Shown here: in pieces, positions 15,001-21,000 of the stretch
Position numbering within the stretch: position 1 is the stretch's first letter
Layout of the letters: each line of letters begins with the position of its first letter
Origin: Escherichia coli
Lineage (GTDB): Bacteria > Pseudomonadota > Gammaproteobacteria > Enterobacterales > Enterobacteriaceae
Reading direction: 5' to 3' (one strand)
Assembly (NCBI RefSeq): GCF_011045215.1
Contig: NZ_CP049202.1
Length of the DNA: 64,000 nt
Program-made: the position numbers

Positions 15001-18000
15001 GACCTTCATATTCATTTGGAGAAATTACCACAGTTGATAATGGCACATGATTAGATACCAGTGTCATCGCAGAACCCCCTTTCCCCTTTCTGAAATACTT
15101 GGCAGAATAACGGGCTTTAAATGTATTTATTCTGCAAGTGTGCTTCTGCCCATCAACACTTCCAAATGGAGAATTTTCATTTATCGTCCAGTATTTATAT
15201 ACAGAAAGATTTGCAATTACATCAGATATTACTGTGTTGGCCATTCCTGTTGTTTCTGGACGAATGAATTTGTCATTCACATCACGTAGTATTCCAATAC
15301 TACGGTCTGATGCAGATGCCATTCTGTGAACACCATAATTTGCGCCATTACCAAATATACAAGCAAGAAGGTCATTATAGTTAGCTTCAAGATTATTTTT
15401 CCTAGATGATATGGCATTAAACACAGACAAAAAATTCGTCTCATTGTTTACATACTTCATTACGTCAACTATCCCGATATTTTTATCTGATTGTAAATCG
15501 GATTATCGATGCTGGTCTTCTATTTTTTACTGGCCAGACTCCACTGTAATCTGTTGGAGTGTGGTTGTTTTTTCACAAACTCATTAACATCTGAGTTTAT
15601 TCCAATGGTTATACGAGCCAGTTTATCGCTAAAGGTATTCTCCAGGTCATTAAGAGTCTGCGTTATTGGTGTGATAAGTCGTTCAAGGCCTGTTTTCTCT
15701 ATCAAAATCGATTTATTCTTATCCCAGTAACTTCGTTCTATGAGATCATCTTCCAGTCTCTTGTTTTGTTCACTCTCCGCAGCATAAAAGACACCGTTTT
15801 CCAGATGGTTAGATACCCTGCTGTACATATGAAATTCGAATCGTTGAGTGTTAATTTCTCCTTTTTTTACAATGTAATTTTTCTCGGATGGATGAATTAC
15901 CCTCAGATCCTTAGCATCCAGCTTTCCTTTTCCTCTGAGATCATCCTTGGCAGCAGTAATTTGCTGGCCAATAACAGACTTCTCGTTGTCATATACTATT
16001 ATCTATAGTCAGAAAAAGCTTTCGGATTGAATTGGCGATCTTAAGGTGATGGCTGTCAATATACTACCATTGATATTCAATTACATCGATTTTATTTTTG
16101 TCAAAAAATTCACTCACAAGATGCATATCATCTTTCGATATAAGTGAAAAAACCTTTTCACGAACATATCCAAACGGGATGCTGTCTTCAATGTTACTAT
16201 CAACGAAGAAGTTAAATATTTTACTCGCAAACTTAAGCTTTTTATTTATTAGATCTATTTCCTCTGTTGCCCGAGCTTTTGCAAACAAAACTGAAGCGTC
16301 TTTATGTTTTTTTACTAAATATCTGAAGGCCGTGATTATTTTATCATTTATCTCTCTGTATCTGAAGTACAAGTAGCAGCACAAATAAAGTATTCCTTGC
16401 CATTTAGGGTGTCGCTTAAGTCTGAATGTTGTACTGTGTTTTACGATAGTTGCATAGTACTCCATGTTTCCCTGGGATATACCTAATGAATTAATTATAT
16501 CTTTTATTTCATAGTAAATACTACTTATCACATTGTGTGTTCTTAATTCATTTTCTATTTCTGATGCTGAGAAGTCCCTCGTGCTATAATTACATCCATC
16601 ATCATGGATGATGGATGTAATCTTTTGTGCAGTGGCAGGATAAATTCTCTTTGACAAAATATTAATTGTCCTTTTCCTTTCAAAGTTTAAAGCATCTGAA
16701 ACGAGGTTCTGGACAGTACTGTATCCAGGAAGAGCTATACGCCGCTGTCCTAAAAAAGCAAGTAATTCATCAAAAATATATTTGGGTTCCATACATATAG
16801 TAGCAACATCATTCAGACGTTCACTTAACTCATTTTTTATAGATGGGGTGAGTTGTTCAAATCCTAGAGTAGAAAGCATTCGTTTAACAAGGCGGTGCTT
16901 TGTACTTTTAGGTATGTTTAAATTGAGATTAGTACTTTCGTTTTTATAATATGTCTGGATAATATATTTCACATCCCTTTTTACGTCTTTTAATGTAAAT
17001 TCAGGAATCACAGGTTTATATCTGAAATACCCTGTTATTAATATCAGATACACCCTGCTTTCTATATTTATTATTTTATCAATTTCTCTTTTAAGGCTGA
17101 TATCCAGCGAAAAAAACTCATCCCTTTCAACAGGATTAAAAGAGGGGACTTGATATAATTCATTTATTTCACTTTTTGTTAATATACTAATTCTTTTCTT
17201 GTACTTCTGCATACATTTACCCAAATGCTAAATATTTTTAAATATGGCGAGTATTAAATATTAAGATATCTGATACCTGTCTAAAACAGCATAAAAGCAG
17301 GTTTCAAAAATCGTATTTTGTACATTATGATACCATGCAGTGTCGAAAACGATAAGTGAGACTAAAAATGGCGTTATTGGGGTATGCACGGGTATCAACT
17401 AGTCATCAGAAGCTAACACATCAAATCTCGGAGCTAAAAAATGCCGGGGTACGGGAAGATCGTATTTTTACGGATATGATGACTGGCGCAACTGATGAAC
17501 GGGAAGGACTACAGCGGTTGTTGGCCCGTGCAGAGAAAGACGACGTAATCATCTGTACAAAAATGGACCGACTGGGGCGTAACACTGCTGACATGATTCG
17601 TGTGGTTGATAGCTGTTACAAAAAGGGGATCGCCATCCGGTTCCTGGAGAACGGTCTCAGTACAGAAGGGACAATGGGCAAAATGGTTATCCAAATCCTT
17701 GCTGCTGTAGCTGAAGCGGAACGTGAGCGTATTCTGGAGCGGACAAACGACGGAAGAATAGCGGCACTTGCCGCAGGCGTAAAATTTGGCAGGAAGAAGC
17801 ATCCACGAACGCCTACAGCGTTGGAGCTTATATCACAGGGAGAATCTCTGGGCAGTGTGACAGAAAAAACAGGTATCTCTCGATCGACGTACTTCAGGTT
17901 AAAAAGAACAATAAAAAATGATGCTAAAATTGCAACGTTTTATAAATAAATTCAATTAATTACCTAAGCAAGGTGAGACTTTTAGAGGAAATGGGCGCGA

Positions 18001-21000
18001 ACCCCCATAATCTGAGAGAACTGCAGTTCGGTATATACCCTGAGTCAATTCATGTGCTTGACTGGTTTCATATAACGATGAGGCTGACGGTGTTAATGCA
18101 GTATGCAAAGGGACCGCAGGCATCAGAGCCAGCGACGGGCAGTAAGGTGTTATCGCTTCTGGAAAGCAGTAAACGATATCTCTGGCACGGTAATGTTGCC
18201 ACTGCACTGGATCGCATTGACGATTGCGTTATGTACTGTGATGACCATGAACTCAACTATGTAAACCTGAAAGCCCTGCAAAAACAGCTGGATGAGATGT
18301 ATACCTACATCCGCAATAATCAGATGATGATCCCAAACTACGGAGAAATGTGCCGGTATGGTGAGCCGGTTTCAACAGCGTTTGTCGAGTCAACAATCAA
18401 CGAAGTGATCGCCCGACGAATGGCCAAAAAGCAGCAGATGCAGTGGAGTAGAAAGGGCGCGCATTATTTGTTACAGACCAGAACTGCAGTCCTGAATAAC
18501 GAACTACAGGACAAATTCGCCAGTTGGTATCCCGGTTGTACGATAGACGCTCAGAGTAGAGGGACGTTATCCGCGATGGCAGCATAGCTACTGCCCCAGG
18601 GTTTTTCATGCTCTCCTTAACTGACCCAGTGAGGTGAAGACCTTTGATAATCATAATCAGTGAAATGCAACGCAAGCTTGCCACATGGACAGCAACCGCC
18701 CCGTCCCGACGGATTACACGGCTGCTGCGTCTGATAACACAACCAGAATGGCTGGCTGAAGCCGCACGGATCACCCTTTCATCAAAAAGGGCACATACCC
18801 CCGGTGTTGACGGTGTGAGTAAAGCAAAGCTACAGGCCAGACTGCCTGCTGAGTTGCAGAGACTCAGCGAAGAACTTCTCTCTGGTCACTACCAGCCTGT
18901 ACCAGCCAGACGGATTTATATCCCTAAAAGCAACGGCAAACTGCGACCACTGGGTATCCCCACGTTGCGGGAACGTATTGTTCAGCGGACCATGCTGATG
19001 GCGATGGAGCCGATATGGGAGAGTGATTTTCATGCGCTCTCGTATGGCTTCCGGCCTGAACGCAGTGTCCATCACGCGATCCGCACGGTAAAATTACAGC
19101 TCACCGACGGTAGTGAAACCCGGGGACGCTGGGTGATACAAGGGGGATCTGTCCAGCTACTTCGATACAGTACATCATCGACTGCTGATGAAAGCAGTAC
19201 GCCGCAGGCTCAGGGATCCACGCTTTATGGTCCTGCTGTGGAAAATCATTAAAGCAGGACACGTTGATGTCGAACTCTTCCGGGCGGCCAGTGAAGGTGT
19301 GCCACAGGGCGGAGTGATCTCGCCGTTGCTGTCGAACATCATGCTAAATGAGTTCGACCAGTATCTTCATGAACGTTACCTGAGCGGAAAAGCCCGGAAA
19401 GACAGCTGGTACAGGAATAACAGTATCCAGCGGGGTCGAAGCACAGCAGTCAGTGAAAACTGGCAGTGGAAACCAGCGGTGGCGTACTGCCGCTATGCCG
19501 ATGATTTCGTGCTCATCGTTAAAGGTACTAAATCACAGGCAGAAACCATCAGGGAGGAGTGTCGTAGCGTGCCCGAAGACAGTCTGAAACTCAGGCTGAA
19601 CATGGACAAGACCAGAATCACCCATGTTAACGACGGCTTTATCTTTCTGGGGCGCAGGATTATCCGCAAACGCAGTCGTTACGGCGGTATGCGGGTGGTC
19701 ACGACGATCCCACGTGATAAAGCCAGAAACTTCGCGGCATCCCTGACGACATTGTTATCAGGCAATTACAGTGAAAGCAAAATCGATATGGTTGAGATAC
19801 TCAACCGAAAGCTGAAAGGCTGAGCTGCGTTCTATCAGTTAGTTGATTTTAAAGCCAAAGTGTTCAGTTCTATCGACCGAGTTGTGTTCTGGAAGCTGGC
19901 TCACTGGCTGGCCCGAAAATACCGTAAAAGTATTGCATACCTGATGAGGTGGTGGTGTAAATCGCCAAAACTAGGTCAGAGTAAAACGTGGATTTTATTT
20001 GGTAAAACCAACCACGGGAAGCTCAACGGTGAAGTACTTTACCGGTTGGTCGGACAAGGCAAGAAGTCGTTCCGCTGGCGTGTGCCTGAGAGTAACCCTT
20101 ACCTGAGGACAGAGACCAGAAACACGTACACGTCACGATATCCGGAAGTGGCAATGGCACTAGCCAGCGTTTAGACGGAAAGCCGGATGCGCTGAAAGGT
20201 GCACGTCCGGTTTGGAGAGGAGAGACAGGGAAATAGCCCGACTACGCCCTGTCTCTTACTCTACTCAGCACATGGCAGGGCTTCGTCTATGTGGCGTTCA
20301 TCATTGATGTGTTTGCCGGATACATTGTGGGATGGAGGGCCTCATCGTCCATGGAAACGACATTTGTGCTGGATGCACTGGAGCGTCGACCGTCCGGCAC
20401 TGTCCATCACAGTGATAAGGGTTCTCAGTATGTATCACTAGCCTACACGCAACGGCTAAAGGAAGCCGGATTACTGGCATCAACAGGGAGTACAGGCGAC
20501 TCATATGACAACTCGATGGCGGAGAGCATCAATGGTCTTTACAAAGCGGAGGTAATACATCGTAAGAGCTGGAAAAACCGTGCAGAAGTGAAACTGGCCA
20601 CACTCACATGGGTGGACTGGTATAACAATCAACGCTTACTGGAAAGGCTGGGCCATATCCCTCCGTCAGAAGCAGAAAAAGCGTATTATGCTTCCATCGG
20701 AAATGATGATCTGGCAGCCTGAGTTCACAGATAAAACTCTCTCCAGGAAACAGGAAACCCAGGGCGGTTCAGATATGTCCACGATGCGTGCGTTGTGACG
20801 AAGGCTGGGATGCCTGAAAGTGTGCGTATCATCTGACAACAGCAACCGTTGGCTGGGGTGCTTATTCAAAATCTGATTTATTCAACAAAACCGCTAATCA
20901 GCTTTCCTGCAGGCCGGTCTGATTAACGGTTTTGTAGTATTCCTATCTTTACGATATATTAATCATGTTTTTTTTCATTTCCATTGGAGTGATACCAAAG

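What the first reader, a model, noticed from the sequence alone, without database searches (positions are those of the whole stretch)
17973..18587. N- and C-terminal halves of an ISKra4-like transposase lie 45 kb apart, each directly after a different serine recombinase
The C-terminal half (17973-18587) follows resolvase 1 and the N-terminal half (63231 to window end) follows resolvase 2. The two resolvases are only distantly related, so this is not a simple duplication. It may reflect recombinase-mediated rearrangement, or a composite element that pairs a serine recombinase with this transposase.
Basis: inference. Interest (0 to 1): 0.35.

Follow-up and report, generated by a model that had tools for sequence, protein, structure and literature searches.

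The report
Two copies of one insertion sequence
The two "halves" belong to two different copies of a known three-gene mobile element (ISEc51, close kin of ISKpn19): one copy simply runs off the window, and the other was cut short by a Tn3-type transposon whose own resolvase gene sits beside the break, which is ordinary wear in a mosaic E. coli plasmid.

Summary
ORF 17973-18587 matches the C-terminal part of an ISKra4-family transposase. The frame from 63232 to the window end matches the N-terminal part. Each follows a serine recombinase gene, and the two recombinases are 31% identical.

The two pairings have unrelated causes. Resolvase 2 and the N-terminal part lie in a 2,859-bp unit with 27-bp inverted repeats: pRiA4_ORF3 protein, serine recombinase and a 467-aa transposase (ISEc51, kin of ISKpn19). 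This unit occurs intact in many flank contexts and about 1,800 plasmids, and the gene combination was described in 2014. Resolvase 1 is the TnpR of a defective Tn3-family transposon (13489-18006). Its 38-bp end abuts the last 610 bp of another ISEc51 copy.

The fragments are not halves of one gene. The N-part differs at 2 of 2,195 nt from its nearest full copies. The C-fragment differs at 16-18 of 610 nt from the same copies. No full copy is mosaic in that arm.

By-products:
- Natural recombinants place a recombination hot spot, probably the element's res crossover site, at 62495-62516.
- One flank is joined to opposite IS ends in sibling plasmids.
- No target duplications were seen.

The sequence beyond the window end could not be obtained.

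The parts
61806..64000 (+). ISEc51-type element, copy 1: reference positions 1-2195 of 2859. It runs off the window; the right end is expected near 64664.
   Evidence: blastn to the reference copy L004 9182-12040 gives 99.77% identity. It differs at 2 of 2195 nt from the L006/L014 copies. The unit boundaries come from 10 loci with different flanks.
61806..61832 (+). IRL of copy 1 (GGAGAGCATGAAAAACCCTGGGGCAGT)
61881..62489 (+). pRiA4_ORF3-family gene (202 aa), the left arm of the element
   Evidence: PF07929 at E 7.5e-31. It is present in every intact copy.
62495..62516 (.). Inferred crossover core of the element's res site (TCTATAAAGGTATACGTTTTCA, with palindrome 62500-62513)
   Evidence: At least four independent natural recombinant classes switch haplotype between reference positions 686/689 and 712/720. 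The core is invariant even in a relative that is about 85% identical.
62491..62624 (.). res-like intergenic region with repeated TGTCT(A/T)TAAA half-sites and dyads
   Evidence: Repeats. The region is about 93% conserved between ISEc51 and ISKpn19, against 84% for the whole element.
62625..63197 (+). Serine recombinase of ISEc51 ('resolvase 2', 190 aa)
   Evidence: PF00239 at E 9e-41. The best solved relatives are Gin invertase (E 2.5e-25), then Tn3 and gamma-delta resolvase (about 1e-15).
63232..64000 (+). ISEc51 transposase gene, codons 1-256 of 467, cut by the window end
61575..61805 (-). C-terminal remnant of the colicin N immunity gene (cni), the target into which copy 1 is inserted
   Evidence: Intact cni (the empty site) is seen in L016, L017 and CP010124, with the junction at the same nucleotide.
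18007..18616 (+). ISEc51-type element, copy 2 remnant: reference positions 2250-2859, holding transposase codons 276-467 plus IRR
   Evidence: blastn gives 97.05% identity to the reference. The haplotype differs from copy 1. Protein alignment.
18590..18616 (-). IRR of copy 2
13489..18006 (.). Defective Tn3-family unit transposon. The intact reference is 3900 bp, at L019 3229-7128.
   Evidence: Both 38-bp inverted repeats were found. Reference positions 1-133 and 802-3900 are present. The reference copy has the 5-bp duplication ATGTT. In the window the flanks are ATCCA and ATAAT, so there is no duplication.
17969..18006 (-). Right terminal inverted repeat of the Tn3-family element. It supplies the false start of ORF 17973.
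17368..17949 (+). tnpR of the Tn3-family element ('resolvase 1', 193 aa)
   Evidence: PF00239 at E 5e-38. E 3e-51 to gamma-delta resolvase 1gdt. Annotated as WP_001196199.1 in CP010123.
14930..17224 (-). Remnants of the Tn3-family tnpA gene, broken into three ORFs
   Evidence: DUF4158 and NF033527 hits. blastn.
13622..14929 (-). IS3-family insertion that replaces Tn reference positions 134-801
   Evidence: rve/HTH_21 domains. ALIL frameshift pseudoknot at 14478-14594. A 1311-bp repeat in CP010123.
13224..13488 (-). IS256-family (Transposase_mut) remnant that forms the left flank of the Tn3-family element
   Evidence: PF00872 at E 3.6e-18. ISEc51 has no match here.
18617..20264 (+). 5'-truncated group II intron (frameshifted RT ORFs, domains V/VI) abutting the IRR of copy 2
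   Evidence: RVT_1 hits. Rfam RF00029 at 20178-20264.

Best explanation
The window holds parts of two separate copies of one known mobile element, and the two recombinase-transposase adjacencies have different causes.

(1) Copy 1 starts at 61806. It is an ISEc51-type element of the ISKra4 family, 84% identical to ISKpn19. The unit is 2,859 bp with 27-bp inverted repeats and natively encodes a pRiA4_ORF3 protein, a small serine recombinase (resolvase 2) and a 467-aa DDE transposase. It is inserted in the colicin N immunity gene. The 'N-terminal half' is simply the part of its transposase gene that fits before the window ends.

(2) Copy 2 survives only as its last 610 bp (18007-18616). It was truncated when a Tn3-family transposon came to lie with its right end at transposase codon 275/276. 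Resolvase 1 is that transposon's tnpR, the last gene before its 38-bp terminal repeat.

The Tn3-family element has no target duplication. Its other flank is an IS256-family remnant. The N-terminal part of copy 2 was therefore most likely lost in one of two ways: an intramolecular replicative transposition of the deletion type, or recombination between two copies of the transposon. This step is inferred.

Within ISEc51, the recombinase most likely acts as a cointegrate resolvase at a res site just upstream of its own gene. This is inferred from the natural recombinants.
For: Family and unit:
- Both fragments hit NF033572.
- The three-gene unit has identical boundaries and inverted repeats in 10 loci with unrelated flanks and in 20 further loci.
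- 1,792 PLSDB plasmids cover at least 80% of window 61800-64000.
- ISKpn19 has the same architecture over 2,853 bp.
- The literature describes pRiA4_Orf3 plus serine-recombinase transposons of this transposase family (PMC3942029).

The break:
- Database matches switch from the Tn3-family element to ISEc51 at 18006/18007.
- A GGGG-type 38-bp inverted repeat ends at 18006. Its partner lies at 13489-13526.
- The intact reference transposon has the 5-bp duplication ATGTT.
- Resolvase 1 matches gamma-delta resolvase at E 3e-51.

Different copies:
- The N-part differs from L006/L014 at 2 of 2195 nt. The C-fragment differs from the same copies at 18 of 610 nt, and from the nearest known variant at 11 of 610.
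- In 17 distinct full-length copies, the arm from reference position 720 to 2859 is uniformly one haplotype or the other. The N-part carries one haplotype up to position 2194. The C-fragment carries the other type from position 2260.
- The left flank of the Tn3-family element is not ISEc51.
- The reciprocal junction is absent from 72,556 plasmids.
- All 10 loci chosen only for carrying an identical resolvase 2 have an intact 467-aa transposase gene.

The res site:
- At least four recombinant classes switch haplotype inside window 62495-62516.
Against: - The source record was not found. The 55-60 bp between the window end and the position matching the break could not be read. It therefore cannot be shown directly that copy 1 is intact.
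- Mosaic ISEc51 copies do exist (L011, L009, L049). A single ancestral copy that was mosaic exactly between reference positions 2195 and 2260 is not strictly excluded.
- The way the N-part of copy 2 was lost is inferred only from the missing target duplication.
- No activity of resolvase 2 has been measured.
Confidence: 0.86

Rival explanations
1. The two fragments are the two halves of one ISEc51 copy. A Tn3-family insertion split it, and a later inversion, or an unresolved cointegrate spanning the rest of the plasmid, moved the halves apart.
For: The fragments are on the same strand and are complementary (codons 1-256+ and 276-467). The unseen 55-60 bp could hold the matching junction. The window is a mosaic of two co-resident plasmid types of E. 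coli strain C5, which is what a cointegrate would look like.
Against: The haplotypes are discordant: 2 of 2195 versus 18 of 610 differences from the same reference copies. No copy is mosaic in that arm. The only left end of the Tn3-family element in the window abuts an IS256-family remnant, not ISEc51. The reciprocal junction is not in PLSDB.
Confidence: 0.08
2. One of the serine recombinases cut the transposase gene directly: site-specific recombination at a pseudo-res site inside the gene made the break.
For: Both adjacent recombinase genes are intact. The Tn3-family element lacks a target duplication, so some recombination or intramolecular event did occur.
Against: The break coincides to the base with the outer tip of a 38-bp Tn3-family terminal repeat. 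That is the signature of transposase action. The res regions lie elsewhere: 17225-17367 for the Tn3-family element and 62491-62624 for ISEc51.
Confidence: 0.03
3. Resolvase 1 plus ORF 17973-18587 is a functional new two-gene module that uses the C-terminal transposase domain.
For: The ORF is open for 204 codons. The same block recurs in CP010123 and in a few short contigs.
Against: Its start codon and first 11 codons come from a transposon inverted repeat. It lacks the N-terminal 275 residues. Everywhere it occurs, it sits inside the same block of broken elements: IS3-family insertion, broken tnpA and group II intron remnant. Only one of 72,556 plasmids carries the junction.
Confidence: 0.02

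Closest known systems
ISKpn19 / ISEc51 (ISfinder family ISKra4; p-MULT 4 Mutator-like transposases, pRiA4_Orf3-bearing transposons of Guerillot et al. 2014)
   Same: Copy 1 has the same three genes in the same order, the same 27-bp inverted repeats and the same res-like intergenic region. It is 98-99.9% identical to copies whose transposase PGAP names 'ISEc51 family', and 84% identical to ISKpn19. The C-fragment is 97-98% identical to the same element.
   Different: Nothing of substance. Copy 1 is cut by the window end. Copy 2 is a 610-bp 3' remnant of a different haplotype.
Tn3 / gamma-delta type unit transposons (tnpA, res, tnpR, 38-bp IRs, 5-bp duplication)
   Same: Element 13489-18006 has divergent tnpA and tnpR genes, GGGG-type 38-bp inverted repeats and a TnpR that matches gamma-delta resolvase at E 3e-51. 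The intact reference copy makes a 5-bp duplication.
   Different: It carries no passenger gene. In the window its tnpA is destroyed by an IS3-family insertion, a deletion and frameshifts. The two flanks do not match, so there is no duplication.
res-mediated arm exchange in Tn21/Tn3-family transposons (mosaic transposons whose break points lie at res site I)
   Same: ISEc51/ISKpn19 variants exchange their left arm (IRL plus pRiA4_ORF3) and right arm (recombinase, transposase and IRR) at one 22-bp core upstream of the recombinase gene.
   Different: The transposase is Mutator-like rather than Tn3-type. The recombinase is closer in sequence to Gin invertase than to Tn3 resolvase. The site has not been tested biochemically.

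Membership tests
ISKra4-family IS (ISEc51/ISKpn19 type) | Transposase matches the family model | tested here: met
   NF033572 gives E 3e-50 and 5e-51. Each fragment scores 171-174 bits, below the 205-bit full-length cut-off, because each is partial. The fragments are 96% and 99% identical to an intact 467-aa protein.
ISKra4-family IS (ISEc51/ISKpn19 type) | Terminal inverted repeats bounding a unit that recurs in unrelated flanks | tested here: met
   The 27-bp inverted repeats and 2,859-bp unit occur in about 17 distinct contexts. IRL lies at 61806 and IRR at 18616.
ISKra4-family IS (ISEc51/ISKpn19 type) | Target-site duplication at insertions | tested here: not met
   No direct repeat flanks any of about 13 contexts for which both flanks are available (read by eye). 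The same left flank occurs with different right flanks. Flank shuffling by recombination at res is a sufficient explanation, so this does not argue against membership.
ISKra4-family IS (ISEc51/ISKpn19 type) | Passenger genes pRiA4_ORF3 and serine recombinase upstream of the transposase gene | tested here: met
   PF07929 and PF00239 hits. The same order is seen in all 30 intact copies and in ISKpn19.
Tn3-family transposon | Tn3-type TnpA (DUF4158 plus DDE_Tnp_Tn3) | tested here: met
   NF033527 at E 3.8e-36 and PF13700. The gene is 98.4% identical to an intact copy encoding a 1012-aa protein. In the window it is broken.
Tn3-family transposon | About 38-bp terminal inverted repeats starting GGGG | tested here: met
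   13489-13526 and 17969-18006.
Tn3-family transposon | 5-bp target duplication | tested here: not met
   It is met in the reference copy L019 (ATGTT). In the window the flanks are ATCCA and ATAAT. This points to a later deletion or recombination, not to non-membership.
Tn3-family transposon | Resolvase of the gamma-delta/Tn3 type next to a res region | tested here: met
   E 3e-51 to 1gdt over the full length. The tnpA and tnpR genes are divergent with a 143-bp spacer. The res sub-sites were not analysed.
Small serine recombinase acting as cointegrate resolvase (resolvase 2) | Catalytic domain with N-terminal serine plus a C-terminal HTH | tested here: met
   PF00239 at E 9e-41 over residues 3-141. 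It aligns over residues 3-183 to Gin and Tn3 resolvase.
Small serine recombinase acting as cointegrate resolvase (resolvase 2) | A cognate res site where recombination actually occurs | tested here: inconclusive
   The site has repeated half-sites and dyads, is highly conserved, and at least four natural recombinant classes map to 62495-62516. This is strong comparative support, but there is no biochemical test.

The most novel reading that the evidence does not exclude
ISEc51/ISKpn19 may behave less like a plain insertion sequence and more like a small Tn3-style replicative transposon. On this reading its own recombinase is active in nature at a mappable 22-bp crossover core (window 62495-62516), swapping the pRiA4_ORF3 arm between variants and scrambling flanks. 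That would explain the lack of target duplications in any of the ~13 contexts with both flanks. In addition, the element can end up reversed at the very same nucleotide: the cni flank touches IRL in the window but IRR in sibling plasmids, and a second such case exists. Exchange at res cannot produce that. It would imply in-place inversion through the 27-bp inverted repeats, insertion targeted to IS ends, or action of the Gin-like recombinase on the ends.
Probability: 0.3. Interest if true: 0.45.

Novelty: already known. Interest (0 to 1): 0.17.

Why it matters
For the finding as posed, very little. It shows that a suggestive pattern (two gene halves, each beside a recombinase) is the routine result of two known mobile elements colliding in a plasmid region crowded with IS elements. 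It is a reminder that an ORF start can be supplied by a transposon's inverted repeat.

The by-products have some practical value. ISKpn19 and ISEc51 sit on roughly 2-3% of sequenced enterobacterial plasmids, often next to qnrS1 and other resistance genes. A mapped res crossover site would explain several things:
- why these elements so often mark module boundaries;
- why they lack direct repeats;
- why they appear at plasmid fusion points.

Tried and rejected
Finding the source record, to read past the window end:
- megablast of window 60000-64000 against complete E. coli genomes and of 50000-64000 against PLSDB found no record with the cni|IRL junction.
- An exact-protein look-up of the junction ORF 61578-61871 found nothing on record.
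- Exact 36-mer scans of genome contigs, metagenome contigs and viral contigs gave 0 hits each.
- A look-up with the ISL3-fragment protein returned only L006-type or empty-site arrangements.

Searching for the reciprocal junction (ISEc51 N-half joined to the Tn3-family left repeat) with a synthetic 499-nt query: 0 of 72,556 plasmids cover it.

Pfam has no model for either transposase fragment. NCBIfam was needed.

I considered that resolvase 2 might invert the element by acting on the inverted repeats, since it is closest to Gin. I set this aside as unsupported because the inverted repeats lack the TGTCT(A/T)TAAA motif of the res-like region.

I considered explaining the flank reversal by recombination between inverted IS copies or by intramolecular replicative inversion. 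I rejected both on logic: neither changes which IS end an existing flank touches.

Literature searches found no description of a res site or target duplication for ISKpn19 or ISEc51 in the held library.
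Full report
**1. The observation**

ORF 17973-18587 (+, 204 aa) and the frame opening at ATG 63232 (256 codons to the window end) both exist. Pfam has no model for them.

NCBIfam NF033572 (ISKra4-family transposase) matches both fragments:
- the first at E 3e-50, over profile positions 270-422 of 422;
- the second at E 5e-51, over profile positions 16-247.

Against an intact 467-aa relative, they align to residues 276-467 (96% identical) and 1-256 (99% identical).

Each lies just downstream of a PF00239 serine recombinase gene. The two recombinases are 31% identical.
- the N-terminal start is 63232, not 63231;
- the first 11 codons of the C-terminal ORF are not transposase sequence (see section 3);
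- codons 257-275 are covered by neither fragment inside the window.

**2. Resolvase 2 and the N-terminal part belong to one known element**

megablast of 61800-64000 finds 2,569 plasmids. Of these, 1,792 cover at least 80% of the query. Wherever annotated, the genes are 'plasmid pRiA4b ORF-3 family protein | recombinase family protein | ISKra4-like element ISEc51 (or ISKpn19) family transposase'.

Ten loci chosen only because they encode an identical resolvase 2 all show the same trio, with an intact 467-aa transposase, in unrelated surroundings. Column-wise comparison of those loci puts the shared unit at exactly 2,859 bp. It is bounded by 27-bp inverted repeats, GGAGAGCATGAAAAACC(C/T)TGGGGCAGT.

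In the window the left repeat is at 61806-61832, and the element runs off the window at reference position 2195. ISKpn19 has the same architecture over 2,853 bp at 84% identity.

Guerillot et al. 2014 described transposons of this Mutator-like transposase family (p-MULT 4) that carry a pRiA4_Orf3-like gene, some also with a serine recombinase. They suggested a role in cointegrate resolution (PMC3942029). This pairing is therefore native and already known.

Copy 1 is inserted in the colicin N immunity gene. The uninterrupted gene is seen in L016, L017 and CP010124, and the junction is at the same nucleotide.

**3. Resolvase 1 belongs to a different element, whose end is the break**

Database matches to 15900-18700 change identity at window 18006/18007. 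To the left is a Tn3-family transposase plus recombinase. To the right is ISEc51.

An intact 3,900-bp copy of the Tn3-family element (L019 3229-7128) has these features:
- a tnpA gene encoding 1012 aa;
- a divergent tnpR;
- 38-bp GGGG-type inverted repeats;
- the 5-bp duplication ATGTT.

In the window its inverted repeats lie at 13489-13526 and 17969-18006. Reference positions 134-801 are replaced by an IS3-family element, and tnpA is split into three ORFs.

Resolvase 1 (17368-17949) matches gamma-delta resolvase at E 3e-51 over its full length. The GTG at 17973 and the next 10 codons are read from the right inverted repeat. ISEc51 sequence begins at 18007 (reference position 2250) and continues to its right repeat at 18616.

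The adjacency of resolvase 1 to the fragment is therefore a transposon-target junction, not a gene pair.

**4. The two fragments are not halves of one copy**

- *Flanks.* The left flank of the Tn3-family element is an IS256-family transposase remnant, not ISEc51. The flanking pentamers differ (ATCCA versus ATAAT), so the element is not a simple insertion.
- *Divergence.* The N-part differs from the L006/L014 copies at 2 of 2,195 nt. The C-fragment differs from the same copies at 18 of 610 nt, and from the nearest variant found anywhere at 11 of 610.
- *Haplotypes.* In 17 distinct full-length copies, the arm from reference position 720 to 2859 is uniformly either L004-type or L002-type. The window's N-part is L004/L006-type up to position 2194. 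The C-fragment is L002-like from position 2260.
- *Reciprocal junction.* A synthetic query for ISEc51 N-half joined to the transposon's left repeat is covered by none of 72,556 plasmids. The junction actually present occurs only in CP010123 and a few short contigs, always inside the same block of broken elements.

The simplest history is inferred, not shown. A Tn3-family element resident in an IS256-family element transposed within the molecule into an ISEc51 transposase gene, with the deletion outcome. Alternatively, two transposon copies recombined. Either route removes the N-part of that ISEc51 copy.

What remains untested is the 55-60 bp just past the window end. Every attempt to find the source record failed.

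**5. Context**

The window is a mosaic. Positions 10906-24751 and 28456-32914 match plasmid A of E. coli strain C5 at 99.6-99.9%. Positions 44797-55126 and 57743-61805 match plasmid B of the same strain.

It is crowded with mobile elements:
- IS3, IS110, IS66, IS256 and ISL3 remnants;
- probable IS21 genes, judged from ORF sizes only;
- a 5'-truncated group II intron directly after the right repeat of copy 2.

Several points where the window and its relatives diverge coincide with ISEc51 ends (61805; 32914 versus CP010123 18302).

**6. How resolvase 2 probably works (by-product)**

The 134-bp spacer between pRiA4_ORF3 and the recombinase gene holds TGTCT(A/T)TAAA half-sites in both orientations and three dyads. 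It is about 93% conserved between ISEc51 and ISKpn19, against 84% for the whole element.

Natural recombinants point to it directly:
- L011 is ISKpn19-type for 117 differences up to reference position 689, then ISEc51-type (5 differences in the remaining 2,150 nt).
- L034 and L038 carry a third left arm (50 differences, the last at position 686) on the same right arm.
- L009, L010, L030, L031 and L033 carry the L002-type left arm (the last difference at position 665) on the L004-type right arm.
- L049 and L050 are the converse: an ISEc51-type left arm on an ISKpn19-type right arm, switching between positions 689 and 713.

All of these switches fit within reference positions 690-711. That is window 62495-62516, TCTATAAAGGTATACGTTTTCA, which contains the palindrome AAAGGTATAC/GTATACGTTT. 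This core is invariant even in a relative about 85% identical.

I read this as site I of a res site, used by resolvase 2 as in Tn3-family transposons. The haplotype pattern is shown. The enzymology is inferred.

**7. Unexplained**

None of about 13 contexts with both flanks shows a target duplication. One left flank occurs with three different right flanks. Exchange at res would produce exactly that.

Exchange at res cannot explain a second observation. The cni flank touches IRL in the window but touches IRR of a 99.9%-identical copy in L006, L008, L014 and L015. Likewise, another flank touches IRL in L007 and L032 but IRR in L013.

The open options are in-place inversion through the 27-bp repeats, hot-spot re-insertion, or insertion targeted to IS ends. 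Resolvase 2 is closer in sequence to Gin invertase than to Tn3 resolvase, but I found nothing linking it to the element's ends.

**8. Verdict**

The feature is ordinary plasmid mosaicism and merits low interest. The res hot spot and the end-for-end reversals of ISEc51 are the only points worth a follow-up.

Noticed in passing
window 62495-62516 (within 62491-62624): Recombination hot spot inside ISEc51/ISKpn19. At least four independent recombinant classes switch left-arm and right-arm haplotype in the conserved core TCTATAAAGGTATACGTTTTCA, just after the pRiA4_ORF3 stop codon. This is probably res site I of the element's own serine recombinase.
   Followed up: yes
window 61805/61806; L006, L008, L014, L015 at 12040/12041; L007 and L032 versus L013: The same flank, at the same nucleotide, is joined to IRL of ISEc51 in one plasmid and to IRR of a near-identical copy in another. 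Two independent cases were found. Recombination inside the IS cannot explain this.
   Followed up: partly
L002, L004-L015, L028-L048 (IS ends): No target-site duplication flanks ISEc51 or ISKpn19 in any of about 13 contexts for which both flanks are available. One left flank is found with three different right flanks.
   Followed up: partly
window 62625-63197: The ISEc51 recombinase is closer to Gin DNA invertase (PDB 4m6f, E 2.5e-25) than to Tn3 or gamma-delta resolvase (about 1e-15). The Tn3-family TnpR at 17368-17949 is a close gamma-delta relative (E 3e-51).
   Followed up: partly
window 13489-18006: The Tn3-family unit transposon has both 38-bp inverted repeats but no 5-bp duplication. 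Its left flank is an IS256-family transposase remnant (13224-13488). Its tnpA is broken by an IS3-family insertion (13622-14929, with an ALIL pseudoknot at 14478-14594), a 668-bp deletion and frameshifts.
   Followed up: yes
window 18617-20264: A group II intron lacks its 5' domains and abuts the ISEc51 right repeat. Its reverse transcriptase is split over three frames (18644-20174). Domains V/VI lie at 20178-20264 (Rfam RF00029). An IS3-type integrase fragment follows at 20291-20722.
   Followed up: partly
window 32914/32915 versus CP010123.1 18301/18302: The window and E. coli C5 plasmid A diverge exactly where plasmid A has the right repeat of another ISEc51 3' fragment (reference positions 2005-2859, reversed). 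ISEc51 ends are recurrent rearrangement break points in this plasmid family.
   Followed up: partly
window 10906-32914 and 44797-61805: The window is a patchwork of two plasmids that co-reside in E. coli strain C5 (CP010123 and CP010124, 99.6-99.9% identical in blocks). No database record holds the window's own arrangement.
   Followed up: partly
window 60765-61415 (-): A chimeric ORF: residues 1-70 match an IS21-family transposase N-terminus and residues 85-211 match the C-terminus of an ISL3-family transposase. Gene callers report it as a 202-aa protein in several assemblies.
   Followed up: no
window 8385-11912 (-), 49971-54353 (-), 35058-40825 (-): Cargo and other elements: a 1,175-aa YadA-type trimeric autotransporter adhesin; a chaperone-usher fimbrial operon (PefC/AfrB-type usher) next to PapB and AraC regulators; and an IS66-family element at 35058-37447 (confirmed by Pfam), followed at 38210-40825 by a second ORF set of similar sizes that was not scanned.
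   Followed up: no
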